DNA of 64,000 nucleotides, taken from assembly GCA_051294375.1 (NCBI GenBank), contig CM119266.1, positions 2,469,008-2,533,007 on the forward strand, in the 5' to 3' direction. Shown here one piece after another: positions 4,205 through 64,000 of the stretch. Positions within the stretch are counted from its first letter, which is position 1. Every line of letters starts with the position of its first letter. This DNA comes from Paraspadella gotoi. Its lineage: Eukaryota; Animalia; Chaetognatha. Made by a program: the position numbers and the translations under genes. The notes under the pieces are model-generated. The model had not been told where the DNA came from. It searched no databases and worked only from the letters and a program-made list of their open reading frames with translations.

Positions 4205-4731
4205 TGTTTTTAAGACGTTGTTAATTCAAACCACCTTCTCCACGATGTCTCGCTGTGAGGATAAAGTTTGCACCCGTTGTAACGAGCACGTGATAAAATT
4301 GTGAGTCATTCGCTATTCTGTAATCGAGGTTTAATGTTGGGAATTAATATATTTACTCTTCTATAGATAAATTCCGAGAATTTTGGGAAGACTCATTCGA
4401 ATATGGGAGGAGTAGCTCTTTAGCTCCTTAGGCGACTTAGTATTAAATGCAGAAAAAGTTTTTTTTTGATTAAAAAGAAATTAATCACATTTTTTGGGGC
4501 ATTTTAATTTGAGACGAAAGACTTTTAAACGTAAGAGACAAAGTGTGCAGAGATGCCGTCCCGTAAGTGTAACATATGTTATTGTTATATGTATATGTTA
4601 TATGACTATGTTAATTATCTTGTTAAGTGTTGAATGGAGGCCTTAAACCACCAAAGCTGTCCAAAGTCAGGGCAAGATAGCTTATTTATTAAATGATGGC
4701 TAATTTTTATATTGGTTGTAGCCAATTTCAT
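4205..4731 (+). mobile_element. 3' end of a LINE-like (CR1/L2/Crack-type) element; partial second copy at 8753-9146
   Basis: Degenerate EDKVCTRCNEHVI...HSLFC reading (CxxC..H..C-like ORF2 C-terminus) followed by an AT-rich tail ending TTGGTTGTACCAATTTCAT. 4328-4731 is directly repeated at 8753-9146. Confidence 0.5.
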
Positions 4732-5235
4732 AAAAATTCATGCTTCTTGTTTTTGATGCTAGTGCGGGAGTACAATATAGTATTCCCCGATTAATACTTA
4801 AGGGAGTGGTTCTTGTTCATACCAACTTGAAACATTCTTTGAAATATTATACGCACTTCATTGATAAGGGAAGCCAGGTTTCACTGGGAGTGAATAATAA
4901 GACTGTGAGAGAGTCTTGATTGAAAGCTTGCAAAAACTGCTATGTTATTATCTTGTAAGTGTGATGGAGGCCTTAAACCACCAAAGCCTGTCAAAAGTAG
5001 GGACAAGATAGCTTATTTATTAAATGAATGGATATTTTTATATTGTTGTACCAATTTCATAAAATTCAGCTCCTTGTATTTTGATGGCTAGTGGCGGGAG
5101 TAGCAATTAGTATCCCCCGATCTAATACTTAAGGGAGTGGTCGCTTTTCATACAATTGAAACGTTCTTTGAAATATTATACACTTCATTGATTAGGGAAG
5201 TCCAGGTTCACTGGGAGTGAATAAATAAGAATTGT
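4605..5235 (+). repeat. Two degenerate tandem copies of the ~323-bp unit
   Basis: GGAGGCCTTAAACCACCAAAGCC...GGGAGTGAATAAA occurs twice; same unit as 56811-58592. Confidence 0.85.
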
Positions 5236-5240
5236 GAGTG

Positions 5241-8200
5241 TGGAAAGTTGCTATAAACTATTTTATGCTCATCTCAAATAGTTCGTCAGCGTAAGCATCC
5301 ACAATATATCATAAACCTTGTTATTGACTAATTGACATAGGACATGATAGACGCTGGTATCATTTGTAACATAGGCGATACATAATAGAATTAGAAGAAG
5401 AAGAAGAAGTAGAGAAGCTTTAACTGTAAAACAAATATAACCTTTTAAATACTTTAACCATTTGAACAAATATACATGTTCAAATACAAATACCTGGCTA
5501 TAGAATCCAAAGAGATAAAATTCCATCTTTAAAAGGCATAAAATATTAGGCAATGTTTTAGCAAGAGTTTTTTCGAGACTGAGACTAAATTGTGACTGAC
5601 TAAAAACATTGTGGAGAATCAAAAATAGGCAGGGCAGAAACATCTGAGTATTCTATGAGTTCAGTCCACGGAGATGTTTACGGAAATCTGCTTACGGTAG
5701 TGTTCGGGAAACAAAAGACAACTATTAAATTATACCAATAAGATATGTCTTTTAAAACATAAGAAATAACTATAAATAATTCTACATTAACCCGCCTCCA
5801 GAACTTGACAAAGGTAATGTTTTGACTCACAAATAAATAAATAAAAATCTCGTTCATTAAGAAATAAAATTAAACATTGAAACGATGCAAAGCAAAGCAA
5901 ATCGTTACGCTACGTCAAGGAAAATTTAATAAAAAATGAATTAACAAAACTACGAGTTTTGTAAAACAAACGGAATCAGACATGAAACGCATTTATCTAC
6001 TAAATTTATTTATAAGCCAAGTTTATGACTAAGCAACAGACATAGCTACAGAGTTAATTTTTGTTTGGTTTACTTTTTAAATTTTTTTATATAGCGTTTT
6101 TCTCAAAATTATTATAAAAATGGAAACTTACTTAATTAACGAATGTTAATTAAAACTAGCAGAACAAACAATAATCGACAGAAATACTACTTTTTCTTTT
6201 CGGGGAATTCTACGTGAAGCGCTCGGGTTTTGGGATGAGGAATTTTTTTCAGAATGCAGCGCGCCCCGCCGTTTTAAGGTTTCGGCGCCGTAATTGGCGA
6301 TGAGGGTTGGTCCACGATTAAAGGGAGAGTGAATCGCCCTCAGTAACTTGAAACGGATTGCGGCTCGTCGTCGACCAAAGAGACAGATTTTTTGACGGAG
6401 CGAATTTTCTTCAGATTCCGACCGCCTCTAGTAATACAACTTTGACGGCACGCTTCCGCTTCGAATTCACGGCGCGCCGATTTTCCACGCGAAGGCGCCG
6501 GCACGAATGGCGCGTATGAGTCGCGGGAAAAGGTTGCAATGACGACGCCGAGGGGCGCACTCGTCTCTTGGAGTGATTTCTGAGGAAAGAAGGACTAAAT
6601 CACCAAGTTGAAAATTGCGTTGAGGTTTTAAAGGCATTTTGACGAGCTTTGCAACATCGTAATATATTCTTTGATCCAACCGCTTCCATAAATGAATCAG
6701 CCAGATGTTGAGTTGGTGCCAAATCGCCGAGATTATTGGCCATCTGCAATCTAAAAGGACTGAGGGAACAATATGGAAATGTAGACATAGTGGGGCCGTT
6801 CCAGGTGAAACCAAAACACGAAGGGGTAATTGCTTGTAAATCGTTTACAATCGTTTGATACGCGAGTCAATGGCCTTTGGTTAACAATACCTTTTTAGCA
6901 ATTAAGCGACAAGGGTTCAAATTACACATCTGATGGGACAAGCTGAATCGAAATATCGACTTTAAGACACGTTTTTAAACTGAGCGGAAAGGCCGCTCCC
7001 GAATGCCGCCAAAATGAGGGGCCGCTGGGGGTTAAAAGACCAATTTATACCTTTGCTGTTAAGACATGGAGAATTCTTTCATTCCACTCTTGACACCGTT
7101 TCTGAAGCTCTTTTATCAGCCTGACGCTAAACATTGTACCACTCTGTCAGACAGCATTTGCTGCACTCTTGGGCGACGGGAAGCAGAATTAAGTAAGCAA
7201 ATTACTGAAAGCAGAAGTTGATAAGTCACAAGCGACTTCAAGGTGAAATCGCACCGCATTTTTAAGGCATGTAAATAAAAGATATATGCGTTTGCGCATT
7301 GCGCGGCCGACTTTTACAAAAAATGAGACCCATGAAATCAACCGCTTTACATTCAAAGGGATAAGAAGGAGACAAACGGTATGAGGGATTGAACCCAGTT
7401 TTCTGTGGCTTTGGTTTGGAAAAGAGACGTAAGACATTTAAACATTTTCCAAATTCAGACTTAATAAAAGCTCGGCCTTTTTAATATCCAAATATTTTTC
7501 TCTCAAATATGGATGAACCTGTTCAACGCAGCAGTGCCCATCTCCTCAGAGTGAACGTGGACGAACAAGAGTTTTGTGACATGATGGCGGGGAGAAGAAT
7601 CGGGTGCTTCGACATCAAAGGGAAGTTCGGATTGGCGTAGTCGACCTTCCGACGCGAAGTAGATTTCTGAATGAAAGGATCCCCAGTTGGCGGCGTATAT
7701 CGCTTCTTTCTTTTGCAAACCTACGCTTTTCGGGATCACGGGAGTAACCTTACCAAAAACTTTAATTTTAAAAAGATTAAATCTGCGTCAGAAAAATAAT
7801 GTTTTTGTAAGAACTGAATTAAGACAATTCTCTGCTAATGCCACTCATTATGGTTATGGTTCCTTGTGACTAAATTAATTTCCCTTTTCTAATTTAGAAA
7901 TACAAATGACTTAAACCTTAAAAAGACCAACAGACAGCTTTTAAAGCTTATCCATGAAGAATAACGTTGGGAATAAGTCCTTCAAAAAATTCAAATCAAT
8001 CTGCCTTACTTCGGTCTGCGGAGAATCTCGACGTTTTCCGTCGTTTTTTATCCTGAAAGATATTTTCTGGCCAATGAGTAGGATCTTGGCCATAAGAGCT
8101 TGGTCCCTTGAAGGAAAAACGTTCCCATGAATCTTCATCGCCGGCGCACGAACCCCGGCGGCTGCAGAGATCGGCTGGATTCAAAGCTGTTGGACCATGA

Positions 8201-8750: not shown

Positions 8751-9404
8751 GCGGTTTAATGTTGGGAATTAAATATATTACTCTTCTATAGATAAATTCG
8801 AGAATTTGGAAGGACTCATTCGATATGGGAGGAGTAGCTCCTTAGCTCCTTAGCGACTTAGTATTAAATGCAGAAAAAAGTTTTTTTTGTGATTAAAAAG
8901 AAATTATCACATTTTGGGGCATTTTATTTGAGACGAAAGACTTTTAAACGTAGAGACAAAGTGTGAGAGATGCCGTCCCGTAAGTGTAACATATGTTATT
9001 GTTATATGTATATGTTATATGCTATGTTATTATCTTGTAAGTGTGATGGAGGCCTTAAACCACCAAAGCCTGTCCAAAGTCAGGGACAAGATAGCTTATT
9101 TATTAAATGAATGGATAATTTTTATATTGGTTGTACCAATTTCATATAAGTATTGGATATAACGTATTCCGCATCAAAAGTATTGCTTCACATTGCATCA
9201 CATCCCATCACATCTTAACCCATCATGTAACGTCTCATCTTCCAACTTATCACTTCTCATCACACTCATCACGTCACTTTACTATCACCTAACTTATTAT
9301 TCCATCATCTCACGTCCTATCACTTCCCATCCGAACACTTCACGGGCAATCGGATGAGATCTCACGATGTCATTATCACTATCACTATCACTATCACTCC
9401 TCAC

Positions 9405-27789: not shown

Positions 27790-28361
27790 AGTATAATCAA
27801 AATTTGAATAGTAGATCCTTAACACTTAACAGACTTGCACCTGTAAACATTTTTAAATAAAAAAATTATTTTTTATTTTTCAATTTTCGAATTAGCCCAT
27901 ATTTATTTATAGTACCCACCACAGAAAATGTCAAAATTTTAAAATGTTTTTTTCTTATTTTTGAAAGCCGATTCGAATTCCTCATGAAAAGTTGATTAAA
28001 GGAAATATAAGTCTTTTTAGAAAATTATTTCATTAAGTGGCTCAAAATCCTAAAAAACTATTATAATTAACCTATAATTAAATTTTAGTATAAAAATATA
28101 GTTTTTTTAATTTTTAGCTAACTTGATTAAGACTTATATTTTCTTTTATCAACTTTTTATGAGAAATTCGAATCTGCTTTCAAAACTAATAAAAAAATTT
28201 TAACAAATTTTAAAATTTTCTATGGTTAGTACTATGTATAAATATGGGCCAATGCAAAATATTGAGATGTTTTAAAATAAATTATATATCAATGTTCTTT
28301 AGTACTGGACTGTTCATGATCAACTATTCGAATTTTGATCTACAACTTTAACTTCACCTTA
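27790..28361. mobile_element. Foldback MITE, same family as 48319-48926
   Basis: Long imperfect palindrome (ATCAAAATTTGAATAGTAGATC vs GATCAACTATTCGAATTTTGAT; AAAAGTTGAT vs ATCAACTTTT). Internal segments match the 48.3-48.9 kb element. Confidence 0.7.
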
Positions 28362-29359: not shown

Positions 29360-29580
29360 GGATGAAGTGAACGCAAGACAGTATTTAATGATTAAGCTGG
29401 TTAAATGCAGCACCCGTTCAACAGTATACAGCAGACACCTGAGGCTCTCGGGATCAAGCTGTAACACTATGTTTACAGGCGGTTAACTGCGCCCCGTCCC
29501 TCTTAACTGCTAAGGCGACCAACCCCGCGTGGGCGGCCTACGAACTCGCCGGCCTCTTTGGGTTGGGAGGGCGAGATGAG
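29360..29580 (-). mobile_element. tRNA-derived SINE family 2 copy
   Basis: Reverse-complement match to 54990-55180 (CTCCCAACCCAAAG...AGCAGTTAAG..GGACGGGGCGC...GTGTTACAGC.TGATCC). Confidence 0.7.
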
Positions 29581-43036: not shown

Positions 43037-45616
<2,580 letters not shown>

Positions 45617-46382
45617 AAGAGTAAGGGGGGGGGGTGGGGAAATTAAAGGGAATTCATGTTTTTATCGTTTTTACGCCGTTTTTTGTTCGACAATTTGTTT
45701 TACATTTTATACATTTTTTATAAAAAAATATATAATTCACTTTTACGCAAAGTTTGAAATTATTTTCAGCTCGAACGATAAGAAGTTAAGAATATAAATG
45801 TCATTTTATTTTGACGCAAAACGTGAGTGCGTCAAATACTTCCGTGAGGTGAACGGCCCAAGAAAAATATATAAATTTTTAAATCTATAATACTAGAACT
45901 TGGTCTTAAACTCGGTTATTAATGTTTATAAATGTTATTAAATCTCCTGTCACCATGATGATAATAATGGGATAGAAAAAGTACGTAGTAAAACAAAATA
46001 AAATCTTGGTCATAGAAACTGACGAGTCAATTGTCAATGCAAAACAAAACAAATGGTATTAACTTGGTATTACTTTGTGATACTGATAGGAGGGTTTTTG
46101 ACATGTTAAGTAGGGGACAGACCGACTGGCCAACAGCGAAGTCTCATTTAATTGGCTTTGAGTTGCTTCGCCTGCTACTAGGAAATTATTTGCTATCCCA
46201 CCAGAAATATAAAGTAATGTCTAAAAAATAACTTGCTTATACGTATCTATGCGCGGGACAAAAATATCGTTCACAGAAGATTATATGAGGATTCTCAATG
46301 ATAGAATAAAACGTATGTTTTCTCGATAATATTTCTCTTCGTTTTCAAGGAGACCTAAGTTAGAACAATTTTTTTACTTTGT

Positions 46383-46648
46383 TATGAAATTGGTACAACC
46401 AATATAAAAATTATCCATTCATTTAATAAATAAGCTATCTTGCCCCTGACTTTGGACAGGCTTTGGTGGTTTAAGGCCTCCATCACTCTTACAAGATAAT
46501 GACATAGCAGGTCCCTGCAAGCTTTCAATCAAGACTCTCTCACAATCTCGTTTATTCACTCCCAGAGTACCTGGCTTCCCTATCAATGAAGTGGAAAATA
46601 TTTCAAAGAATGTTTCAATTGTATGAAAAGACCACTCCCTTAAGTATT
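46383..46648 (-). repeat. Dispersed truncated copy of the ~323-bp unit
   Basis: Starts ATGAAATTGGTACAACC on the + strand, the same terminus as the array at 58592. Confidence 0.9.
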
Positions 46649-47073
46649 TTTTAAGATTTTATTTTAACTGTTTCAATCAATAATACCAATTTTATAAACA
46701 TCTACAAATTATCCCCGACTAGTCACACAATTTTGCAGAACTCGCTGTATTCATCATTTGCTCTAATTTGTATTTAAGGCATACTTATTACGTCCTTTTT
46801 ACTGAAGAATCAGATAAACGAAAACCTTACCTACTTATTTAGTAATTTGAACCCATTTAAATCGGTAAGTGCGCGTTAGAAATATCGATCTCAAAATATT
46901 ACATGAGATTTCTCAGATGATAAAACAAACATACGAATTTGTCTAGTCGATATTCGTTGTCATGGAGACAAAAACAATATTAGGAGGTGCAACTGGGGGT
47001 GTTCGCAGGATTGCACCCCCAGGAATTTTCTCACATAAAATCGCACACTATATAAAGTGTATAATCGTGTTTC

Positions 47074-49299
47074 TCAATCGCAAATCCTATCTTGCTGATC
47101 GTAAATCGCCACCGAGTAAAAGCTACTCTGACGGTTTCCAATAGACTCCCGACAAAAGAGTCCGAAGCACTTCGTCAGCATTCGACGTTCCTTGGGGATG
47201 CTGAACATCCCTGTCACATTGCCGCCGCCTTCTGCTCTGCTATAGAATACTCTGGAGACGTTGATGATCGAGACCCAATTCTGGGAAACTCCTGTCCCGG
47301 ATGTAAAGTTCGATATGAAGGCTCCAAAGGTCAGGGGAACCTTCTTCAGTTTCTTAGTCGTCCAAAAGCGAAACCCCGCAATTACCTAAATTACGGTGAA
47401 AGAATAACCTTCCGCTTTACGGTTTTAATTTGCAAATATATCTTGCCCCTGACTTTGGACAGGCTTTGGTGGTTTAAGGCCTCCATCACACTTACAAGAT
47501 AATAACATAGCAGGTTTCTGCAAGCTTTCAATCAAGACTCTCTCACAGTCTTATTTATTCACTCCCAGTGAACCTCGCTTCCCTATCAATGAAGTGGTAT
47601 AATATTTCAAAGAATGTTTCAATTGTATGAAAAGACCACTACCTCTATAATTTTTTCTGTTAGTTTGAAAGGTTAAACGAAGCTTGTAGTCGGGCATTGC
47701 CGAGGTTCACCCCGCCTAGAAGCATGACTCTTTCAGTTGTGACCCGGTGGCTCATTGAGTAAAGCACTCAGCTCATGACCACTGGGTGCCGGGTTCAATC
47801 CCAAGCCGTCTTGGGGGCATGACAAACCCTCAAGCCATGTTCCAAGCCCAGGACCCGTTCCATGGTTGCTAGAGGAGTTATAGAAGTTACGAACAATCAT
47901 CTTCAGCCCACGTAGCGCCTTATCCTCAAGCTTTTTTTTATACGTATCTTACCTTGGACCTTTTTAAACACACATAGGCGAAGTCTCTGCCATTGACCAT
48001 ATTTCTAGCCCACTTGCTATCTTCGCATAAATTTGGTATTCGGCAGAGGGGGCTGCCGTCGGTGAAGTTGAATTGCCCCGTCAGTGCCCACTTGTCTAAC
48101 CGAACGCGACCGTAAAATTCCGCCTCATCTTTCAACGATATGCGGGATCCTGTTTGGTCTTTAATAAAAAAAAAAATTAATTGACTTTTTTTATTTTTCC
48201 AAGAATGGTTTGCTAGCAAATCACTAAGCCAGTGTACTAAGGCACCGAGGGGACATGTGAGGGGTATGATGCATCTCGCAACGGCTGACGCTCAGGGTTT
48301 CAGACCTGCAGTGACCACTAAGGCGTAGTGAAAGTTACATATAAAAATTCTAAAATGTCAATTATGAACAACATACTATCAGTAATATTAATTTATAAAA
48401 AAAATTATTTTATGTTCTTCAATTTTCGCAGTAGGCTATATTTATATATAGTACTATCCTTATAAAATTGCAAAAATTCAACATTGGCTTTTCTTAATTT
48501 TGATTGCAGATTTGAATCCTCGTCAAAAGTTGATAAAAGAATATATAAGTCATTTTAAAAATTCTTTCATTAAGTGGGTTAAAAATTTAAAAAACTATAT
48601 TTGATATATAAAAAGTTAATTTTCAGCTTAAAATATAGCTTTTTCTAATTTTTGACCACTTAATGAAGAATTTTTTAAAAAAAGAGTTAAATTTCTTTTT
48701 ATCAACTTTTTCTGACGAATCCAAATCTGCAAAAAAATCTTAGAAAAAACTGTTTTAAAATTTTAATATTTATTGGATTAGTACTAGTATAAATATGGCC
48801 TACTGTGTAAATTGTAAAATTTATTATAAATTTTTTATTACATAAATGTTTATTAGTTTAATGTTATTCGTTCCTCACTTTTAGAATTTTAATTAAAGTT
48901 AAATTTAGAAATTTTACTACGCCTTAGTGACCACCCCATGTCACTAGCGCGTTAATGCCGACAGTATCATACTATAACCAAGCTATACGCCACAGTACTT
49001 TAAAAAATATTTTTTTCTGCTGAGCATAACCTCTCCGATTTTCACATTTTTTAATTTATAATTAATTGGTAATTAATGCACACTCAAGGCAATCTTTGGA
49101 GGCCAAATGGTGATTTTCAACATTTTTATTTTTACTCACTAGCTTCACAACTCCGGCGAATGACAACTATTTTCCCGCCAAATCTCTGAACGACAGCAGA
49201 CGGACTCGTTGATGAAAATTGATATGTCGATGGAGATGACAATGACGACAAAATCAGCGTAAAACAAAACAAAAGGCGAGGATAAAAAAACAGCGCCAT
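47074..49299 (-). CDS. Secreted protein of unknown family, paralog A (225 aa); exons 49299-49140, 48158-47953, 47385-47074
   Basis: MALFFYPRLLFCFTLILSSLS...PSAVVQRFGGKIVVIRRSCEA | NQTGSRISLKDEAEFYGRV...RNMVNGRDFAYVCLKRSK | VIAGFRFWTTKKLKKVPLTFGAFISN...TKCFGLFCRESIG...IYDQQDRICD*. GT-AG introns in phases 1 and 0, open frame throughout, exon-by-exon homology to paralog B. Confidence 0.85.
47437..47640 (-). repeat. Internal fragment of the ~323-bp unit (intron 2 of paralog A)
   Basis: TATCTTGCCCCTGACTTTGG...GAAAAGACCACT on the + strand. Confidence 0.9.
47685..47870 (+). mobile_element. tRNA(Met-like)-derived SINE family 1 with a conserved 5' extension
   Basis: A-box TGGCTCATTGAG, anticodon-like CTCATGA and B-box GGTTCAATCCC from 47739, preceded by a ~55-bp leader shared with the copy at ~775-830. 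Confidence 0.65.
48319..48926. mobile_element. hAT-like foldback MITE (608 bp) in intron 1 of paralog A
   Basis: TIRs TAAGGCGTAGT...ACTACGCCTTA, flanked by a perfect 8-bp target-site duplication GTGACCAC (48311-48318 and 48927-48934). The interior is an imperfect palindrome. Confidence 0.85.
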
Positions 49300-49418
49300 C
49301 CTTTGGGAGAGCTAAAATCTTTTTTTGAAACGCAATTATTTCACCACCAACAGTTCGGAGGAATATCGGCAGATCCCGATCGATTCCTCGGCTAAAATCT
49401 CGGCAGAGAGTGCCGATT

Positions 49419-49777
49419 TTTTAGTTGCGCCACGAGTACTCGCAGAGCAACTCTATAAGTCACTCTTCGGTCTGTCGGTCGGTCGGTCCGTCGGTATATC
49501 TGTCGGTCGGTCTGTCCCACTTACGATTAAAATATATATAATTTGCCTATAGTTGGTTGCTTTTTTGTTAAGACAGAAAAACCTCAAATCTAAGGGATTC
49601 AAGAGCCGCCTTAAGGAAAAGACGGAATTTTGATGCAGTGTATGTCATAAATACATGGGCTAAGAAAGTTATTGTAGTCATGTTATGTCATGTCATATCA
49701 CGTAATATCATGTTATGAGAAATACATGTGATAAGGCAGTCACTGCGGCGCAACACATTTGAATTGCCTTTCTTGTT
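49419..49777 (+). mobile_element. HINE/DINE-1-like element
   Basis: TTTTTTAGTTGCGCCACGAGTACTCGCAGAGCAAC hairpin, (GTCG/GTCT)n microsatellite and TTCTTGTT end. Confidence 0.65.
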
Positions 49778-51239
49778 CTATTTCGTTGAGCTCCGGCGAA
49801 TAACTTAGAAGAGAAGGATAACGATATGATTTTGAAACATGAGCAATAGAGTGGAGCTCTTGAGAAAAAAAATTTGATTTGAGTCAATTAACAATAATAA
49901 TTTTATGCGAGTACAAAAAGTATTTGGTTCATATTGTGTCGGGAACAGAAAAGCAAAATACAATATATTTATAGAATTATCCTTATAAAATAAGAAATTT
50001 TCCAAAAAAAATTTTTTAAAATTTTTATCAAAGATTCAGATTTCTCATAAAAAGTTAGACCAAAAATATAAAACATGTTATCACAAATTTTTATGTCTAC
50101 AATATCAAAGTTAAAAAAAAATGTTAAAATTCTCAACTTTTTAACTCTCTGTAGTAGAAAATATTATTTGAAAAACCGATATTAAGGATAAGGATATTAC
50201 TACAAAAAAAATCTCATTTGCTCTACTGTTAGGCTAAAAAAATTTTTTAAAAGGCATGATTTTTTGGAGTTATACATACGGAATCAGCAAAAAAATATTG
50301 TTAACTCGCTTAATATTTTCATCACTTAACCCTAATGAGCAACCCAAAACTTTCATACAGGATGCAACGAGATATATACACTTAGCACTTTGAGATAGTA
50401 TGAACCGTTTTGGTGGAAAGAAAAAACGTTTTGCCAATTCTATAAGAAAAACTCAAACTTGCTGAAATTCGTAGGAAAACAGTTTTGTTTAATCTGACTT
50501 TTTTCATTGAATCTGTCATCTCTCTTTAAACTTTTTTAAAATTCTATGATTGATAATTTGACAATTATTTAAAATTTGTAATTTGCTACTCACACTGCAT
50601 CCCTGTATTTACCAGAGTATGTTTTCATCGTCCACTTAAAGCGTCTAATGCAAGCATCCAACAGATGGAAAATGAAACCCGAAAGAGGAAAGGATTAAGG
50701 AAGAGGATTCCGGAAGAGGAAGAAGATTCTGGAATGATTTCGAACGTGGATTTTGGAAGCCAAATCCAGTAAGGAACAATAGTTTCCGGAAGAGGAAAAA
50801 GAAGGTTCCAGAAGAGGAAGAGGAGGATTCCGAAGAAGGAATCTGGCTTCGTCTACTTCCCATTATAAATAGCCTCTGTTTCTGGCTTTGATTCCTCTGT
50901 CCTAAATCTGACACCGTGCTTGCGCTTGTTCTTAGTGAAATAAATATCCACTTTGGTTTCATGTTGAAATCCCTGTCTACTTCTTAAATGTGGTACAGAG
51001 TGGATTCGACAACCACGACTCCAACAGGAAGAGTAAAAACCTTACCACCAAGACCACGCCACTCAAGAAAATGGACTTCGCCATCAGAAGAAAGACGGAA
51101 ATATCGATCGCATGAGAAGTTTCAGATGATGAAATGAATATACGAACTCGTCGCGTAGATATATCCGGTTATCATTTCCTCGTGGACTTATTTGTAATAG
51201 CGTTAATATGGATAAGAGGCGAAGTGGCAGCAATGGAAC

Positions 51240-51375
51240 GGCTTCGAAACCAGCTTGGGGTTTTCCAACCCCAACGCCGGGTAAGCGCCATCGATCCCGA
51301 TATCTGAGGGTCATGAGCTGATGGCTTTACTCATGAGACACCGGGTCACGACTGCGGGTGTATGATTATAAGCTG
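51240..51375 (-). mobile_element. tRNA-derived SINE family 1 copy
   Basis: GTGACCCGGTGTCTCATGAGTAAAGCCATCAGCTCATGACC...AAAACCCCAAGC on the - strand. Confidence 0.6.
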
Positions 51376-51934
51376 CTATTCCGAAACAATAATAACAAAA
51401 CAGACTAAATCGGAGTGATTAACAATTGAACAGTCGACACTTTTTGCGGTCTCATCGAAATATAGAAAGGATAGCACGGAATCACATTCAAACAATTTTC
51501 TATAACTATTTGTTTTTTATTTCAAGGTTTTCATCTGAAAGAGCTAAAACTAACAAAAACGTCATGTCAGTAAACGGTTTTGTAATCGACTTTTGTACTG
51601 CGAAAAAAGGAGACATGAAAATGAAATTCATTAAAAAAAAATGTGACCAAATATATAATTAGATGAGAACTTGAAACTTATAGACGTTGAGTTAAAAAAA
51701 AATTATTTACTGAAAAAAAAATTGAAAAAAAATAATTATGAGACTGATGAACAATTACGAAATGTAGAGGATAAAAAAATTAAGAGAATCAAAAACAGAT
51801 ACTGATATAAAAAATTGTGATGAATGAATGTGAATTGAAATGATGTTTGAATGAACAAAAACTGACGCCGCTTAATCGTTCATCTTCAAAGTTTCTGAAT
51901 CGGAAAAAAAAAGGGGGAAAAAATTGTTGACGCT

Positions 51935-52375
51935 TTATCTTTGGCAACAACAACGACAACAAACAAAGTCAAAACAACAACGACAACAAATTATTCTACT
52001 CTTTCTCTCACCTCCCTCTCCTTTTCCTCTTCCTTCTTTCTCCTTCTTCTCCTTCTTCTCCTTCCTCCCCTTCTTCTCCTTCTTCTCCTTCTTCTCCTTC
52101 CTCCCCTTCTTCCCAAGCGTGATCATCCCCATGTCGACGGCCGACTCGGCGTCCAACTCCGACTTCGGTTCATGAACGACGACAGGAGCGAAGGCGACGG
52201 CGCAGCACTCCGCCTCCAGCCGCAGCGTGTAGTTGCCAGGCAGCAGCAGGCGCCAGAATTCTCCCCATTTCGTCGTCCGCGAGACGACGTCCTCTCGGCC
52301 GACGACGACGACGGAGGCGTTGACGATCGTCACTCCTTTCCAATTTATGGTCACACCTTTGACGCCGATGAGACC
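51935..52375 (-). CDS. M14B (CPE/CPD/CPM-type) carboxypeptidase-like gene: transthyretin-like C-terminal domain exon with Lys/Glu-rich and Cys-rich tail
   Basis: GLIGVKGVTINWKGVTIVNASVVVVGREDVVSRTTKWGEFWRLLLPGNYTLRLEA matches the GVKG...NA.I.V...GDYWRLLxPGxY signature; TTTAG acceptor at 52376-52377. Confidence 0.75.
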   Translation of the reverse strand, partial: GLIGVKGVTINWKGVTIVNASVVVVGREDVVSRTTKWGEFWRLLLPGNYTLRLEAECCAVAFAPVVVHEPKSELDAESAVDMGMITLGKKGRKEKKEKKEKKGRKEKKEKKEKEGRGKGEGGERKSRIICCRCCFDFVCCRCCCQR

Positions 52376-52909
52376 CTAAATATCTACCACTATTTAGGTA
52401 AGTCGGTATTGGGCAGAGACAGACAGACTGACACGGGACTCGTAGTGTTCCATCCGCAGTCCTAATGACTTCCCTCTGCGTTGGCAAAGCGAGACCGTCC
52501 TAGGGTAACCGCGCCAGTGACTGGAGGCGTCACTGAGGGTCGGAAGCCCCCAAAGCCAACAGTGAGATTCCCCATCCCAATGGGCATCACAGGCAACCCG
52601 GCTGTTGCCATAGTGTTACCTTTACGATGTTAGTTTTTATGTTATATTTTTATCAGTGTAGTTTTTATTTGTTTACTGTCTTCCAGTCTTTTTTTCTGTT
52701 ATTGATCTTTTACTAGTTTTGTTTTCAATTATGTTAATATCGTTTTTGTTATTAATAAAAATATAAAATTTCAAGAGATTAAAAAGAAAAATATAGTTTT
52801 ATTAGATACAAAACTCCACGAAAAATGAAAAATTTATCCATGCGTTTTTCCTTTCATGATTATTATACATTTACACAATCTTCACCCCGGTGAATGAAAC
52901 CGACCTCAC

Positions 52910-53101
52910 GCTCCGACCGATGGAATAGAGATAAGCCTGATCAGGATACTTCTCCACCAAACGAGTCATCGTCTCCATCAAATCCGAGTTGGAAAAGTAG
53001 ACGTTCTTTCCCGGCGTCACGGTCTCCTCTCCGGCGCCATCCGTCCACGGCGTCAAAATGGCGCCCAAAAATAAATAAATAGCCGGCGTCGCCGACAGCA
53101 T
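52910..53101 (-). CDS. M14B carboxypeptidase-like gene: first exon (signal peptide plus start of the peptidase domain)
   Basis: MLSATPAIYLFLGAILTPWTDG...VYFSNSDLMETMTRLVEKYPDQAYLYSIGRS matches the YH...L...YP....LYSIGxS start of M14B enzymes; GTGAGG donor at 52909. Confidence 0.75.
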
Positions 53102-53911
53102 TTTTGAACGGGGGGGGGACAACCCGAGAGAGGAACTTCGGGCCGGAATATCCGACTAAGATCTTATAGTATGAGCTTCCATTTAATTATTTAATTCAAG
53201 CCTAAACTTCGTTAAATATTATCGCCTAAAAAGACGATTTAATATTCGATTCTTTTCCGTCGTTGCTTTTTTTAAATCCAAAGCGAAAGCGTTGGGTTTA
53301 ATTTTATTTTTTTAAACAATGGAGATTAAAAAAAACAAACTTTCTGATTTTTAAAATCAGAAAAGTCAAATCTGTCAACTCGCTAAAGTTTAATCGTAGC
53401 AGAATGTAAGTTTTGACAAATAATATTTTTTTGTCAAAATGTATAAGTTACATGAAAAAAAATGTATTTGAAAAAAATAAATAAAGATTTAAAAATAAAG
53501 AAAATTTCTTCATTCCTGGGATTATGAGCCATAGCTGCCCTTTCGATATCCTCCTATTATTCCTATTACTCCAGTGGAAATATAAACAAAAAATGAACGA
53601 ACCAACGGAAGGAATAAAAATGGAGCAATGAAGCGAACAATTTTCATAACGTCACTAAGTGTAGATAAAAGGAAGAATTATTCACTGCTTTACTGAGAAG
53701 CTCGAAAATGATCTTTATCTTCCTTAACACTTTGCTAATATAAAAACAAAATTAAATATTATTAAATTGTATAATTATAATTATAGTATTATCAGTTTTA
53801 TTATTATTATTACTTTGTCTCGCTCCACGACCAATCAGTTTCCTGCGATCTTATTTTCTAGCAACACTTCCATTCCTTATTGCGTTTTGCCATTTGCCAT
53901 TTGCCATTTGC

Positions 53912-55490
53912 TCAACCACAAATCCGCCCTGGCCTTTCATCTCCCTCATAAATCTTCAATCTGGAGAAATTACAAGCTTTCTTCCCAGTCGACTCTCGGC
54001 ACACGAGCCCCAAGCACTTCGTCGGCTTCCGGAGATAGACGGGGATCCTGAAAAATTCTGAGGAGTTGCCGTTGATGGGGCTGTAGTGAAGACTGGAGAC
54101 TTTGACGACGCGGACCCAACTCTGAAGAAAATTGGACCCTTGAGTCAAGTTGGACAGGAAGACTTCAAAGGCGAGAGGAACTTTCTTTGAACTTTGCGGC
54201 TTCGTGAGGCGAAACCCGACGATCGTCTGGAGGTCGGGGAAGGGGATTCGGAGAGGGCCCCGAATACGAATGGCCGAAAGGGGGTTTGGGATTGTGTGAG
54301 GGTCTTGTCAAACTGTTACGTCAAATGACAGGTTTATAAATTATAACTACGAGCTATGTCTTATATATGGAAGACGATTCGGCGTGCGGATCTGATAGTA
54401 TGCCGCCATTTTAGGCGTACAAAATTTGATAAAGAAATATATGAAATATTATTTCGTTCCTTTTTACCTTCGGCCTTTTGAAACAGGCAAAGCAGATGTC
54501 TTTGTGGGGGACCACATTTCGGATGCAGGTGTTTTGGAAGCATTCTTTTCTAAACGGGCAATCGCTATTGTCGATTTTGCCCACCGACTCGTTAAAAGGG
54601 ACGTGACCGAAAAAGTCAGCTTCTTTTTTCAGCGCAATCTGGAGTCCTATTCCTTTATTTTAGGAGTTGGCGGAAAGAGGGAGAATGATGATAATGATCA
54701 TCTTATAGAGAGTGATAGATTTAAGTATTAATATCTACTAAGTAAACAACTTTTCAGGATCTCAAAAGTAATTGATCCCATGACAAAAGAGTATGCCCTT
54801 GCCCAAGGCAACATAAGCTTTTTCACTAGAATTAGAGAAAACAAAGTTTTTTTTGTTGTTACAAACCACGATTTTTTGTATTAGACATAGAAACAGGACA
54901 TGTTTCGGCTTCGGTTCAAAGATTTAAAATTAAATTTGTATGGTGGACTAAAATCCACCAACCGTTCATCAGCGGCCATTGGTGCCGGAGGCAAGTCATT
55001 CGCCTCCCAACCCAAAGGTCCGGGGTTCTAGCCCGGTGGCCGCCTAGCAGTTAAGGGGGACGGGGCGCTTAACCCGCCTGTAACTCGGTGTTACAGCCTG
55101 ATCCGAAGCTCAGGGACTGCATATATTGAACGGTTCTGTCATTAACACTTATCAATAATTACTGTCTCTTCATTTGCATTCTTTCGATGATACGTTGTAA
55201 AAATTATGAATAAGTGATTAATTCTGTCAATTTCGTGCGCTTCGTCAAATTGTGCTTGAATGCAATTGTGGCCTTTACTCACCCGCTTCGCATGTCCTTC
55301 TAACGACCACGAGTTTCCCGCCGAATCTTTCTACAACACCAGACGGACGAGTTGATGGAGAAGATGAAGATGCTGATGTAGTTTTTAACGATACAGACTC
55401 CTTCGACAGCGACGACGACTTGGCAGCGAAAATAAACGTTGAAATAAGCAAAAGGAGATAACAGACCGACAGACGGACGGACAGCGCCAT
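53912..55490 (-). CDS. Secreted protein of unknown family, paralog B (235 aa); exons 55490-55283, 54652-54468, 54226-53912
   Basis: MALSVRLSVCYLLLLISTFIFAAKS...PSGVVERFGGKLVVVRRTCEA | GIGLQIALKKEADFFGHV...RNVVPHKDICFACFKRPK | TIVGFRLTKPQSSKKVPLAFEVFLSN...TKCLGLVCRESTG...IYEGDERPGRICG*. GT-AG introns in phases 1 and 0. Confidence 0.85.
54972..55180 (+). mobile_element. tRNA(Gly-like)-derived SINE family 2 (intron 1 of paralog B)
   Basis: Head GCGGCCA...CCGGGGTTCTAGCCCGG TGGCCGC keeps the acceptor and T stems. The anticodon arm is broken and the 3' body is shared with 29360-29580. Confidence 0.7.
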
Positions 55491-56543
55491 TCTCTGCAGG
55501 GTGAAATCTCGGCAAAAAACCTCTACGATTCTCGACAAAGACTGACGGATTCCGGCAAAGCCAAAGTCTCTATGATAGGGATTAGCAGTATTCGACAAAA
55601 TTTCTATTTTTCTATCGGCCGAAAAATAATAGGGAATTTGATTAGGTTAGGAAAGTAGAGTTAAACCGGAGGCGGAAATATCGACCCCTGAAAGGTAAAC
55701 TAAAGTTTCTCCAATGATAAAATAAACACGTAGTTTGTTTTCTTTATATCCTTATATCATTTCCTCTTCGTCTCGTCGCTATAAAGACAATAACAATAAT
55801 AATAATAACAATAATAATAACAATAATAATAATGACAAAAATCTGTCTTTTACTGAATTTTTCTTTGTATTTTGACTTTCTTTTTTGCTATTTAAAATAG
55901 TTTAGAGATGAAAGGAAAAATTCGTTGTAATAGCAATTTTTATTTTTATTATTGTACATGTTTCGACTCTTAGTGTTACGAGTCTTTTTCTTCAAATATA
56001 TTAAGTTGACAATGCTAACTGTTTGTTCGTCAGGCATACTGTTACACTACATAGGGTTTTTTTTTTTAATTTCAAATAACGAGTTGAACTTGTTAAGGAA
56101 TACCGTCGCATTGAAAAGGGAAGATTTAGAATGTTTATTTGATAATATTTTAACAATTATTTTGCAAAATATTTTTTGTCATCTTCAAATGTAAGTCTCT
56201 AACGAGGAGACAGTTTTCCCATTAAAAGCGAGAGCGTCTCAGTTTTAAGAAGAGGAATGAAAAGTTGAAAGCTAATGGTCGAAATTCTATATCAGAAATG
56301 ATTAGAGAGCTACTTGATGCGGTGACATTACATAATATAATTGATGAAGCAAATGTGGCTTTATTTATACTGTTTTTAAAACATATGCAATTAGCGAATT
56401 TGTCGACCTATTTCCGAAAAAAGTCTAAAAGAGATGCGTCGATGCATCGAAAAATAACGGAAGCAGAAATGGAACTCGAAATGGATCGTTTATGAACTGG
56501 ATGTGGCTGTCAAAGAGAGAGATGGAGATTGGCGGCGTTTTGA

Positions 56544-56627: not shown

Positions 56628-56810
56628 TGATGTCTCGTTAGTTCTATTGGTTTCGACGTTTCCCTTTCAAGAGAAAAAGATTTGAAATATTTGCGGCAAA
56701 AAGTTTAATTTGAATTCTTAATTTGATCAGCGCGCATCTCAACAGACATCGGATACAAAATAACAAATAACAATAACAATAACAATAACAAATAACAAAT
56801 AAATTACAAA

Positions 56811-58592
56811 ATAAACGAGACTGTGAAAGAGTCTTGATTGAAAGCTTGCAGGGACCTGCTATGTCATTATCTTGTAAGAGTGATGGAGGCCTTAAACCAC
56901 CAAAGCTGTCCAAAGTCAGGGGCAAGATAGCTTATTTATTAAATGAATGGATAATTTTTATATTGGTTGTACCAATTTCATAAAATTCAGCTCCTTGTAT
57001 TTTGATGCTCGTGCGGAGTACAATAAGTATTCCCGATCTAATACTTAAGGGAGTGGTCTTTTCATACAATTTAAACATTCTTTGAAATATTTTCCACTTC
57101 ATTGATAGGGAAGCCAGGTACTCTGGGAGTGAATAAACGAGACTGTGAAAGAGTCTTGATTGAAAGCTTGCAGGGACCTGCTATGTCATTATCTTGTAAG
57201 AGTGATGGAGGCCTTAAACCACCAAAGCCTGTCTAAAGTCAGGGGCAAGATAGCTTATTTATTAAATGAATGGATAATTTTTATATTGGTTGTACCAATT
57301 TCATAAAATTCAGCTCCTTGTATTTTGATGCTCGTGCGGAGTACAATAATATTCCCCGATCTAATACTTAAGGGAGTGGTCTTTTCATACAATTTAAACA
57401 TTCTTTGAAATATTTTCCACTTCATTGATAGGGAAGCCAGGTACTCTGGGAGTGAATAAACGAGACTGTGAAAGAGTCTTGATTGAAAGCTTGCAGGGAC
57501 CTGCTATGTCATTATCTTGTAAGAGTGATGGAGGCCTTAAACCACCAAAGCCTGTCTAAAGTCAGGGGCAAGATAGCTTATTTATTAAATGAATGGATAA
57601 TTTTATAATGGTTGTACCAATTTCATAAAATTCAGCTCCTTGTATTTTGATGCTCGTGCGGAGTACAATAAGTATTCCCCGATCTAATACTTAAGGGATG
57701 GTCTTTTCATACAATTTAAACATTCTTTGAAATATTTTCCACTTCATTGATAGGGAAGCCAGGTACTCTGGGAGTGAATAAACGAGACTGTGAAAGAGTC
57801 CTGATTGAAAGCTTGCAGGGACCTGCTATGTCATTATCTTGTAAGAGTGATGGAGGCCTTAAACCACCAAAGCCTGTTCCAAAGTCAGGGGCAAGATAGC
57901 TTATTTATTAAATGAATGGATAATTTTTATATTGGTTGTACCAATTTCATAAATTCAGCTCCTTGTATTTTTGATGCTCGTGCGGAGTACAATAAGTATT
58001 CCCCGATCTAATACTTAAGGGAGTGGTCTTTTCATACAATTTAAACATTCTTTGAAATATTTTCCACTTCATTGATAGGAAGCCAGGTACTCTGGGAGTG
58101 AATAAACGAGACTGTGAAAGAGTCTTGATTGAAAGCTTGCAGGGACCTGCTATGTCATTATCTTGTAAGAGTGATGGAGCCTTAAACCACCAAAAGCCTG
58201 TCCAAAGTCAGGGGCAAGATAGCTTATTTATTAAATGAATGGATAATTTTTATATTGGTTGTACCAATTTCATAAAATTCAGCTCCTTGTATTTTGATGC
58301 TCGTGCGGAGTACAATAAGTATTCCCCGATCTAATACTTAAGGGAGTGGTCTTTCATACAATTTAAACATTCTTGAAATATTTTCCACTTCATTGATAGG
58401 GAAGCCAGGTACTCTGGGAGTGAATAACGAGACTGTGAAAGAGTCTTGATTGAAAGCTTGCAGGGACCTGCTATGTCATTATCTTGTAAGAGTGATGGAG
58501 GCCTTAAACCACCAAAGCCTGTCCAAAGTCAGGGGCAAATAGCTTATTTATAAATGAATGGATAATTTTTATATTGGTTGTACCAATTTCAT
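56811..58592 (+). repeat. Tandem array of ~5.5 near-identical ~323-bp units
   Basis: ATAAACGAGACTGTG recurs at 56811, 57133, 57456, 57778, 58102 and 58424. The array ends TTGGTTGTACCAATTTCAT. Confidence 0.97.
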
Positions 58593-58694
58593 TAAAGTAT
58601 AATAATAATGACAATTATGATATAATTTTTTATGAATTTATTATCTTACGATACAAAAAGCCATTGCTATATTATTTATTTAGGAAATGTTTTC

Positions 58695-61791: not shown

Positions 61792-64000
61792 TGGAATTCC
61801 TAATAAACTTATTTATGCCTCATCTCATAGTTCGTAGCCGTAAGCATCAAATATATCATAACCTCCGTTTTATGACATAATTGACATAGGACTGATAGAC
61901 ACTTGGTGATCTTAGTAACATAGGCGATGACATAATAGAATTAGAAGGAAGAAGAAGAAGTAGAAGAAGAAGAAGAAAGTAGAAGAAGCTTAACTGTAAA
62001 ACAATATAACCTTTTAAATACTTTAACCATTTACAAATTATAACATGTTTCAAAAACCAAATACTGGCTTTATAGAATCCAAGAGATAAATTTTCCATCT
62101 CTTTTAAAAAGGCATAAATATTAGCAATGTTTTACAAGAGTTTTTCGAGACATTGAGACTAAATTGTGACTGACTAAAAAACATTTGTCGAGAATCAAAC
62201 TAGGCCAGGAGAGAACATCTGAGATTATTCTATGATTCAGTCACGGAGACTGTTACGAAATCTGCTACGTTATTTCGGGAAAACAAAAAAGACAACTATT
62301 AAAGTCTATACAAAAAGATATGTCTCTTTAAAACATGAAGAAAATTAACTATAAATAATCTACATTACCGCCTCCAGAACTTAACAAGTAATGTTTTATG
62401 ACTACAATAAAATAAAAATAAAATCTCGTTCATTAAGAAATAAAATTAACAATATGAAACGATGCAAAGCAAGAAATCGTTAACGCTAACGTTCAAAGGA
62501 AATTTGAATAAAAAGAATCTAACAAACGTACGAGTTATGTAAACACAACGGAATCAGACATGAAACGCATTTATCTACTAAAATATTAGAATAAGCCAAG
62601 TTGCTATGAAACTAAGAAACAAGACACATACTTACAGAGTTAATTTTTGTTTGGTTTTACTTTTTAAATTTTATATAGCGTTTTCAAATTATAATAAAAT
62701 GAAACATACTTATACGGAATGTTAATTAAAACTACAGACAAACAATTAAATCACAGAAATACTAACTTTTTCGTTTTCGGCGATTCTACGCGAACGTCGG
62801 GGTTTGGCGATGAGGAAATTTCAGAATTTCAGCCCGCCGCGTTTGAGGGTTTCAGGACCGTAATTGGCGACGAGGGTTGGTCACGATTAAGGGAGAGTGA
62901 ATCGCCACTCCAGTAACTTTGAAACGGAGCGGCTCGTCGTCGACCAAAGAGACAAGATTTAAGACCGCACGAATTTACTTCGGATTCCGACGCCTAGTAT
63001 ACAACTTGACGCACGCTCGCTCGAATTCACGGCGCGCCGTTTTTACAGCGAAAGGCGCCGCCACGGATGCCGGTCTGAGTCGGGTAAAGGTGCAATGACG
63101 ACGCCGAGGCGGCCACTCGTCTCTTTGTAGTGATTTCTGAAGAAAGAGGACTAAATCACAAGTTGAAAGATTTGCGTTGAGGTTATTACCCCCATTTTTT
63201 GACGAGCTGCAACATGTAATATATTCTTTGGTCCACCGCTTCCAAAATGAATCTGCAGATGTTGAGTTGGTGCAAATTCGACCGGGTATGCAATGCGTCT
63301 ATTGAGCATTGAAAGAACATACGTGGAAACAGGGTAATTGCTTGTAATCATCTTACATCTTGATACACGATCAATGCCTTAATACTTCGCAACAGGGTTC
63401 TAAATACATTCATCTGATGGACAAGCTGAACGGATATCGACTTTAGGACACGTGTTTTTAGCTGAGCGGACAGGCGGCTCCAAATGCCGCCAAAAATGAG
63501 GGCCGCTGGAGGTGGTTAAAAAAGACCAATTTAATACTTTGCATGTTAAGACATGGGACGAGAATTCTTCATTCCACTCTTGACACAGTTCTGAAAGCTC
63601 TGTATCAAGCTGACCTAAAATTATGTACGCATTGTCAACAGCATTTGCCTCACTCCTGGGCGACGGGAACATAGAATCTAAGTAAGCAATAATGAAGACA
63701 GAAGTGGATAGTCAACAAGCGACTTTCAAGGTGGAATCGCACGCATTTAAGCGATGTAAATAAACAGATATAGCGTTTGCGCGTTGCGACGGCCAGAACT
63801 TTTACAAAAAATGGACCCATGAAATCAAACCCTGTACATCAAGGATAAGAGGAGACAAACGGTAATGAGGATTTACCATTTTCTGTGGCTTTGGTTTGGA
63901 AAAGAGACGTAGACATTTAAAACATTTTCCAAATCTCAGACTTAATAAAAGCTCAGACCTTTATAATATCCAATATGTTTTCATCAAATATGATGAACCT
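61792..64000 (-). mobile_element. BEL/Pao LTR retrotransposon, second copy (putative 3' LTR ~61792-62364 plus integrase region; continues past the window end)
   Basis: Colinear with 5241-7520 over the whole length, with many indels. Confidence 0.85.

What the first reader, a model, noticed from the sequence alone, without database searches (positions are those of the whole stretch)
47074..55490. Two hidden paralogous three-exon genes encoding an unrecognised family of secreted cysteine-containing proteins
Seen: two minus-strand genes (225 and 235 aa) with identical intron phases (1, 0), hydrophobic N-termini and a Ser-rich linker. Conserved blocks occur in every exon: PS.VV.RFGGK.VV.RR.CEA; I.LK.EA.F.G.V; RN.V...D...C.KR.K; GFR...KKVPL.F..F.SN.T.G....Q.WV....VS; F.IP...R..TKC.GL.CRES.G; IY...RIC.*. 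Seven Cys positions appear shared. Introns are unalignable while the proteins are conserved, which implies purifying selection. Inference: exon 3 spacing loosely resembles a discoidin/F5-8C-like galactose-binding jelly roll, so these could be secreted lectins, mucus or effector proteins. I do not recognise the family.
Basis: partly seen in the sequence, partly recalled or inferred. Interest (0 to 1): 0.85.

Follow-up and report, generated by a model that had tools for sequence, protein, structure and literature searches.

The report
Twin secreted discoidin-like orphan proteins
Two neighbouring duplicated three-exon genes, one with an intron removed in a public sequencing run, encode small, strongly basic proteins with no relatives found; they are likely secreted and are tentatively predicted to be far-diverged discoidin-type binding domains, a real but fairly ordinary kind of lineage-specific gene.

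Summary
Gene A (55490-53912, 235 aa) and gene B (49299-47074, 225 aa) have GT-AG introns in phases 1 and 0. They share 45% identity and seven mature cysteines, with dN/dS about 0.45. A contig of run X1 skips intron 2 of gene A exactly. Gene B and both first introns have no RNA support. An exon-3 profile found 0 relatives among 1.84 billion proteins, and Pfam named nothing.

The discoidin/F5-8C guess has weak support. Protein-language-model neighbours of A exon 3 are F5/8C clusters (0.93). Two full-length F5/8C profiles scored z 2.7-3.6; two others scored about 0. Low-confidence models match jelly rolls and C2 domains equally. The fucolectin sugar-binding motif is absent, so 'lectin' is unsupported.

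Best reading: likely secreted, disulfide-clamped, discoidin-like single domains that would bind anionic surfaces (about 0.5 overall; fold alone about 0.6). They are not filed as F5/8C members. In passing: a 323-bp repeat carrying a twister-ribozyme-like motif, with one copy in sense orientation inside intron 2 of gene B.

The parts
55283..55490 (-). Gene A exon 1: start codon, hydrophobic leader (about residues 5-23), Ser/Thr-rich linker, conserved basic block (residues 46-69) ending at Cys67
   Evidence: frame, phase-1 GT donor, hydropathy; block 75% identical to B; no RNA cover
54468..54652 (-). Gene A exon 2 (alternative in-frame acceptor at 54646): likely N-terminal third of the jelly roll, with Cys101, 107, 112, 123, 126
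   Evidence: 54642-54468 covered by the spliced X1 contig
54227..54467 (-). Gene A intron 2, 241 nt, GT-AG, phase 0
   Evidence: skipped exactly by an X1 contig, depth 19.7, 175 letters on the short side
53912..54226 (-). Gene A exon 3 coding part: predicted beta-sandwich core, Cys202, 207, 216, 234, stop codon
53823..53911 (-). Gene A 3' untranslated region, as far as covered
   Evidence: X1 contig runs through the stop to 53823, where the tool skips a repeat
49140..49299 (-). Gene B exon 1: start codon, hydrophobic leader, Ser/Thr linker, conserved basic block ending at Cys51
47953..48158 (-). Gene B exon 2 (alternative in-frame acceptor at 48149): Asp87-Gly88, Cys92, 98, 117, Trp103
47074..47385 (-). 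Gene B exon 3: predicted beta-sandwich core, Cys195, 200, 224, stop codon
47433..47503 (-). Twister-P5-like motif in a partial repeat copy inside gene B intron 2, sense to the pre-mRNA, about 50-120 nt upstream of the exon-3 acceptor
   Evidence: Rfam RF02684 25.6 bits, below the gathering score of 37.6
54939..55174 (.). Hairpin-rich repeat element in gene A intron 1, very deep in X1 contigs (SINE-like, inferred)
   Evidence: summed contig depth about 68,000; partial copy at 29376-29521
48303..48942 (.). Degenerate inverted-repeat element in gene B intron 1 (MITE-like, inferred)
   Evidence: 71% self-complementary, related copy at 27844-28361
51935..53101 (-). Separate two-exon carboxypeptidase D/M-like gene between A and B that lacks the catalytic domain (53101-52910 and 52375-51935, both splice ends in phase 0)
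   Evidence: no RNA cover of its exons

Best explanation
Two paralogous three-exon genes encode basic proteins of about 23 kDa that are likely secreted and are predicted to fold as one far-diverged discoidin (F5/8 type C-like) jelly-roll domain, which would bind negatively charged surfaces such as sulfated glycans, acidic mucins or anionic membranes rather than act as a classical galactose or fucose lectin. Shown: gene structure, paralogy, purifying selection, splicing of intron 2 of A, net positive charge (pI 9.8-9.9), absence of the fucolectin motif. Inferred: a signal peptide cleaved near residue 22; a flexible Ser/Thr linker; a domain running from Cys67 to Cys234 in A (51-224 in B) and clamped end to end by a disulfide, as in the factor VIII C domains; further disulfides 101-107 and 126-202, and in A 112-123 and 207-216, leaving B Cys200 free. 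The ligand is a guess from charge and from the behaviour of triad-less discoidin domains. Fold about 0.6; fold plus anionic-surface binding about 0.45.
For: ESM Atlas on A exon 3: three sets at 0.93, two of them F5_F8_type_C clusters (10 and 3 of 30 hits; the third, 17 hits, has no family); 10 of the 10 best hits with a family share one family or clan; recognition 2685. End-to-end profile alignment of spliced A+B to a 46-domain F5/8C profile: z 3.1-3.6 over four gap settings, 0-4 of 500 column shuffles as high; the best of 45 real decoy segments reached z 2.5. A 26-domain genome-only profile gave z 2.7 (3 of 300); 30 of 30 subsamples of these two profiles were positive (z 0.9-4.6), with the signal in the exon-3 part. 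Control folds for A+B: FN3 z 1.0, CBM6 0.8, ricin-B-like -0.4. Landmarks fall in order in the printed alignments: Asp-Gly and Trp in B exon 2, Pro...Ser-Asn...Trp, the penultimate strand and the final Ile-Tyr strand. The exon-3 model is nearly all beta and aligns to the C-terminal 100 residues of the EphA7 ligand-binding domain (Z 5.8, rmsd 3.1, 91 aligned) and of a CBM32 (Z 5.4, rmsd 2.8, 88 aligned). Factor VIII C1 and C2 are discoidin domains with one disulfide each, 2021-2169 and 2174-2326 (PMC8820644, PMC2837666, passages). Factor V C2 lacks the basic triad and binds phospholipid (PMC5712786 section 15).
Against: No Pfam, NCBIfam or PHROG family near a cut-off on single exons. Local HMMs on the spliced proteins fail: narrow 42-sequence profile, nothing above shuffles; broad profile, A 0.5 bits and B not reported; hhalign probability 0.6%, P 0.097. 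Two of the four F5/8C profiles gave z about 0 in the end-to-end test (-0.31 and -0.15). B alone never exceeds z 0.9 and scores higher on FN3 and CBM6 (1.9, 1.8). The ESM hits share only 150-152 features, below the 170 typical of same-family hits, and B exon 3 gave no usable hit. Models are poor (pLDDT 50 and 41); the top wide-search match is a C2 domain (Z 5.6), tied with CBM32, none reaches Z 8, and the B model gives at best Z 2.7. The F5/8C hypothesis was chosen beforehand and all profiles were bacterial. No binding evidence of any kind.
Confidence: 0.5

Rival explanations
1. The genes are real and the proteins likely secreted, but the beta-sandwich is not discoidin-related. It would be a C2-like, prodomain-like or new lineage-restricted fold, and the F5/8C signal would reflect alternating beta-strand patterns.
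For: Top structural row is the Serrate C2 domain (Z 5.6), then pro-myostatin (5.0) and a tardigrade C2 protein (4.8). Two F5/8C profiles gave z about 0. B has no ESM hit. The most conserved part (exon-1 block, 75% identity) has no F5/8C counterpart.
Against: FN3, CBM6 and ricin-B-like controls and 45 decoys do not reach the z of the full-length F5/8C profiles. ESM named neighbours are of one clan. Foldseek's best rows are Eph ligand-binding jelly rolls.
Confidence: 0.3
2. They are discoidin-like but true carbohydrate lectins, like CBM32 or F-type lectins, with a rebuilt sugar site, acting in innate recognition or adhesion.
For: CBM32 and CBM62 entries recur in the structural list (9vak, 8ayr, 2yb7, 7d2a). 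B keeps Asp-Gly at the calcium-site position. FA58C domains occur in sea-star adhesive proteins (PMC9382459, passage).
Against: No HX24RXDX4[RK] motif, nor its second half, in either protein; B has no His; A lacks the Asp-Gly (motif from PMC5712786 section 8).
Confidence: 0.12
3. The exons belong to a larger or membrane-anchored protein, for example a discoidin-carboxypeptidase fusion of the CPXM/AEBP1 kind (names recalled) with the neighbouring M14 pieces, or have an unseen upstream exon.
For: M14 carboxypeptidase fragments lie 0.8 kb downstream of A on the same strand. Both start codons follow an AG with a pyrimidine-rich run. Exon 1 has no RNA cover.
Against: The spliced contig reads through the stop codon of A into 3' untranslated sequence. 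The carboxypeptidase piece has its own ATG and hydrophobic leader. Both genes stop at the aligned position after the last Cys.
Confidence: 0.04
4. One or both copies are decaying or silent duplicates; gene B in particular is untested for expression.
For: No RNA was laid on B. B's introns carry repeat insertions, one with a possibly self-cleaving motif. The neighbouring carboxypeptidase has lost its catalytic domain.
Against: Both frames are intact after about one synonymous change per site, dN/dS is 0.42-0.46, splice sites and seven Cys are kept, and A is spliced.
Confidence: 0.04

Closest known systems
F5/8 type C (discoidin) domain superfamily, Pfam PF00754/PF22633, including bacterial CBM32
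   Same: Order and spacing of strand landmarks, predicted beta-sandwich, size of about 160 residues, ESM neighbours.
   Different: No family HMM score. Stand-alone domain with a conserved basic N-terminal extension, 7-10 mature Cys, a Cys-bounded insert after the Asp-Gly position, and the calcium motif lost in A.
Factor V/VIII C domains (animal discoidin domains)
   Same: A Cys near each end of the domain that could form a domain-spanning disulfide (about 150 residues apart in factor VIII, 167-173 here); no lectin triad; extracellular.
   Different: Those are modules of large proteins with one disulfide each. No sequence hit among solved structures. Membrane binding was not tested here.
F-type lectins (fucolectins)
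   Same: Small secreted jelly-roll proteins with several disulfides, found in many invertebrates (PMC5712786).
   Different: Fucose motif absent; h2DGx calcium motif only partly kept in B and lost in A.
Eph receptor ligand-binding domain; C2 domain of Notch ligands
   Same: Best structural rows for the exon-3 model (Z 5.8 and 5.6).
   Different: 9-10% identity, Z within the background range, no receptor or EGF/DSL modules.

Membership tests
F5/8 type C (discoidin) domain | Family HMM score at or above the curated cut-off | tested here: not met
   Pfam: 0 families for exon 3 of A and B (single exons only, while the domain would span exons). Own local HMMs on spliced proteins: A 0.5 bits, B none.
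F5/8 type C (discoidin) domain | Eight-stranded jelly-roll topology (PMC3320712, passage) | tested here: inconclusive
   Exon-3 model pLDDT 50; CBM32 Z 5.4 and EphA7 Z 5.8 tie with C2 Z 5.6. Full-length protein not modelled.
F5/8 type C (discoidin) domain | Strand-pattern similarity over the whole domain | tested here: inconclusive
   z 2.7-3.6 with two full-length profiles, about 0 with two others; carried by A, not B.
Animal discoidin (factor V/VIII C type) | Disulfide joining the domain's first and last cysteine | not testable with these tools
   Cys present and conserved at both ends (A67/234, B51/224); the pairing is inferred.
F-type lectin | Fucose-binding motif HX24RXDX4[RK] | tested here: not met
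   No match in either protein with spacing relaxed to 20-30; B has no His (motif).
F-type lectin | Calcium motif h2DGx | tested here: not met
   B has Asp87-Gly88-Ser preceded by Phe-Thr, not small hydrophobics; A has no Asp-Gly.
CPXM/AEBP1-type discoidin-carboxypeptidase (recalled) | Discoidin and M14 domains in one reading frame | tested here: not met
   Spliced contig passes the stop codon of A into untranslated sequence; the M14 piece has its own start.
Secreted protein | Cleavable signal peptide | tested here: inconclusive
   Single N-terminal hydrophobic stretch in each protein and no other above 1.8; no predictor available; 5' end of the transcript not seen.

The most novel reading that the evidence does not exclude
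A new family of stand-alone secreted proteins built on a discoidin-like or unrelated jelly roll, with a conserved basic N-terminal hairpin and its own disulfide network (the canonical Asp and Tyr positions replaced by a cysteine pair), with no detectable relative in 1.84 billion representative proteins; gene B may in addition be throttled by a self-cleaving twister ribozyme carried into its second intron by a retrozyme-like tandem repeat that uses twister instead of hammerhead.
Probability: 0.25. Interest if true: 0.65.

Novelty: new variant of a known kind. Interest (0 to 1): 0.4.

Why it matters
If the fold call is right, these genes show a discoidin module diverged beyond the reach of Pfam and used alone as a secreted, disulfide-rich binder. 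They give a small, expressible target for finding what such a triad-less domain binds. Lineage-restricted secreted paralog pairs are common in invertebrate genomes (own knowledge), so the pair alone is of moderate interest. The twister-like repeat beside and inside gene B may matter more: the animal retrozymes in the papers read here carry hammerheads, and this one is testable with a simple cleavage assay.

Tried and rejected
Homolog searches, all empty:
- Exon-3 profile against 1,835,955,588 representatives: 0 at E<=0.001.
- Word-based search of 183-2000 aa proteins: 0 of 519 candidates at E<=1. This tool is insensitive: a clear carboxypeptidase exon returned 1 of 1095 candidates.
- Metagenome, prokaryote-genome and viral contigs: 0 of 313, 0 of 64 and 0 of 79 pattern matches confirmed.
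- Plasmids: 2 chance hits at E 5-8; phages: none.
- PDB sequences: only E 0.8-2.
- Earlier scan findings: nothing in 5 look-ups.
Exons 1 and 2 were not searched against the large protein libraries, and the spliced proteins were scored only in scripts.

Structure: Foldseek gave no match at E<=0.001, best 0.08. The gene-B model was uninformative. ESM Atlas gave no usable hit for B exon 3.

Own errors: one search used a start one base off for B (fixed). The hmmsearch table was a stale file and is disregarded (redone). The dot-bracket was out of register (redone).

Profile test: four F5/8C profiles, four gap settings and seven sub-ranges were tried, so the best z values are not corrected for choice.

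RNA: no listed holder is on record as RNA. Lack of cover over exon 1 of A and over the carboxypeptidase exons is not evidence of silence.

Rejected: out-of-frame acceptors 54701 and 54734 for A exon 2; fusion of A with the carboxypeptidase.

Literature: three searches for secreted discoidin-like or restricted proteins (listings and abstract starts only) showed no description of this family, but the organism is unknown, so this is weak. Supplements were not consulted and could list these genes as unnamed transcripts.
Full report
Observation. The window is eukaryotic, AT-rich and repeat-rich; no whole genome is held. Splicing by coordinates gives two intact minus-strand genes. Gene A: 55490-55283, 54652-54468, 54226-53912, 235 aa. 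Gene B: 49299-49140, 48158-47953, 47385-47074, 225 aa. All four introns are GT-AG, phases 1 then 0. The proteins share 96 of 214 aligned residues (score 370; 300 shuffles, mean -40, max 10.5) and seven mature cysteines; A has three more. Both have one N-terminal hydrophobic stretch, a linker about 60% Ser+Thr, pI 9.8-9.9 and four or five N-glycosylation sequons. dN/dS is 0.42 (0.46 for the mature part) with dS near 1.0, and DNA similarity between the genes at E<=0.001 is limited to exons. No third copy lies in the window.

Expression. One public run, X1 (RNA by guess), holds 0.23 of the words of the region. On 52130-55750, a 589-nt contig covers 54642-54468 and 54226-53823 and skips exactly the 241-nt intron 2 of A. 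It runs through the stop codon, and its one difference is synonymous.

Relatives. None was found: 0 of 1.84 billion representatives at E<=0.001 with the exon-3 profile, 0 of 519 word candidates, none in metagenome, prokaryote or viral contigs, and no family in Pfam, NCBIfam or PHROGs near a cut-off. These used single exons and at most two sequences, and spliced genes of unannotated eukaryotes may be missing from the libraries, so the blank shows isolation, not novelty of fold. The organism is probably an animal; the only pointer is the neighbouring carboxypeptidase, whose best hits are an insect carboxypeptidase D and animal CPD/CPM structures.

Fold, evidence for. ESM Atlas placed A exon 3 next to F5_F8_type_C clusters at 0.93, with 10 of the 10 best family-bearing hits in one family or clan. 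The AlphaFold model of exon 3 is almost all beta and aligns to the C-terminal 100 residues of jelly-roll domains: EphA7 ligand-binding domain Z 5.8, rmsd 3.1, 91 aligned, and a CBM32 Z 5.4, rmsd 2.8, 88 aligned. That is the part expected if exon 3 is the last two-thirds of one domain. I built F5/8C profiles from bacterial domains and aligned the spliced proteins end to end. The 46-domain profile gave z 3.1-3.6 (0-4 of 500 shuffles as high) and 45 real decoys reached at most 2.5. A 26-domain genome-only profile gave 2.7 (3 of 300), and 30 of 30 subsamples were positive. FN3, CBM6 and ricin-B-like controls gave 1.0, 0.8 and -0.4. Conserved cysteines bracket the domain (67 and 234 in A), as the single disulfides of the factor VIII C1 and C2 discoidin domains do (PMC8820644 and PMC2837666, passages).

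Fold, evidence against. Local HMMs do not score the spliced proteins, and hhalign gives P 0.097. Two further F5/8C profiles, one trimmed and one narrow, gave z about 0. The signal comes from A; B alone stays under 0.9, has no ESM hit and a useless model. ESM feature overlap (150-152) is below the level typical of same-family hits. The models have pLDDT 50 and 41, a C2 domain ties for first place (Z 5.6) and no match reaches Z 8. I put the discoidin-like fold at about 0.6 and do not file the proteins as family members.

How it most likely works. Inferred chain: the leader sends the protein out of the cell; a Ser/Thr linker and a conserved basic hairpin precede a single jelly roll clamped end to end by a disulfide. 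Mapping cysteines onto the alignment suggests pairs 67-234, 101-107, 126-202, 112-123 and 207-216 in A, which uses all ten, and leaves one free Cys in B. This rests on recalled strand pairing and is untested. The fucolectin motif is absent, B has no histidine, and the calcium Asp-Gly survives only in B (motifs from PMC5712786 section 8), so a canonical lectin site is unlikely. The same review notes that factor V C2 lacks the triad and binds phospholipid (section 15). With 31-36 Lys+Arg against 15-16 Asp+Glu, the likeliest role is binding anionic surfaces: sulfated glycans, mucus, matrix or microbial membranes. Overall confidence 0.5. Rivals: another or new beta-sandwich (0.3), a rebuilt lectin (0.12), part of a larger protein (0.04), decay (0.04).

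Surroundings. Between the genes lies a carboxypeptidase D/M-like gene whose two exons join in phase but omit the catalytic domain. It has its own start and is not fused to A. A 323-bp repeat (5.5 tandem units at 56810-58596; 11 motif copies in the window) carries a Twister-P5-like motif at 25.8 bits, below the gathering score of 37.6. The closing stem, P4 and both pseudoknots can form (97% of cells paired across 10 distinct copies, no covariation because the copies are near identical), and several pairs differ from the Rfam consensus on both sides (read by eye). P1 is reduced to a 6-base palindrome; P1 is reported dispensable (PMC11662667, passages). One copy lies in sense orientation in intron 2 of B. 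Animal non-LTR retrozymes are tandem repeats of about 170-400 nt with hammerheads (PMC7229834, passages), and twister variants head a Schistosoma retrotransposon (PMC8501958, abstract). Three searches (listings) showed no twister-bearing tandem array, which does not prove there is none.

Papers seen: PMC5712786 passages and sections 8 and 15; PMC3320712, PMC8820644, PMC2837666, PMC10785288, PMC9382459, PMC7229834, PMC11662667 and bioRxiv 10.64898/2026.07.22.740005 passages; PMC8501958 abstract and outline. No supplements were read.

Verdict. Novelty: new variant of a known kind. Interest 0.4.

Noticed in passing
window 56810-58596 (+), with copies at 4606-5225, 9020-9149, 46368-46652 (-), 47439-47656 (-): 323-bp tandem repeat (5.5 units, 97% matches) whose units carry a sub-threshold Twister-P5 match (25.8 bits against 37.6) with closing stem, P4 and both pseudoknots able to form and P1 reduced to a palindrome. 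It looks like a retrozyme-type array with twister in place of hammerhead; activity untested.
   Followed up: partly
window 47433-47503 (-): One twister-like copy sits in sense orientation in intron 2 of gene B, close to the 3' splice site; if active it would cut the pre-mRNA in competition with splicing.
   Followed up: partly
window 53101-52910 and 52375-51935 (-): Carboxypeptidase D/M-like gene with a hydrophobic leader and the first 30-odd M14 residues joined in phase to the C-terminal regulatory-like domain and a Lys/Glu-rich, Cys-ending tail; the catalytic domain is missing. No RNA cover seen.
   Followed up: partly
window 54939-55174 and 52457-52612: Two hairpin-rich elements with very high summed contig depth (about 68,000-74,000) in run X1; no Rfam or tRNA match. 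Probably abundant SINE-like repeats.
   Followed up: partly
window 48303-48942: Degenerate inverted-repeat element in intron 1 of gene B with a related copy at 27844-28361; MITE-like.
   Followed up: no
window about 43550-45600 (+): Multi-exon beta-tubulin-like gene, recognised by eye from the frames (name recalled, not searched).
   Followed up: no
window 6467-6844 (-) and 62975-63711 (-): Degenerate frames resembling the end of an LTR-retrotransposon polyprotein (recalled resemblance).
   Followed up: no
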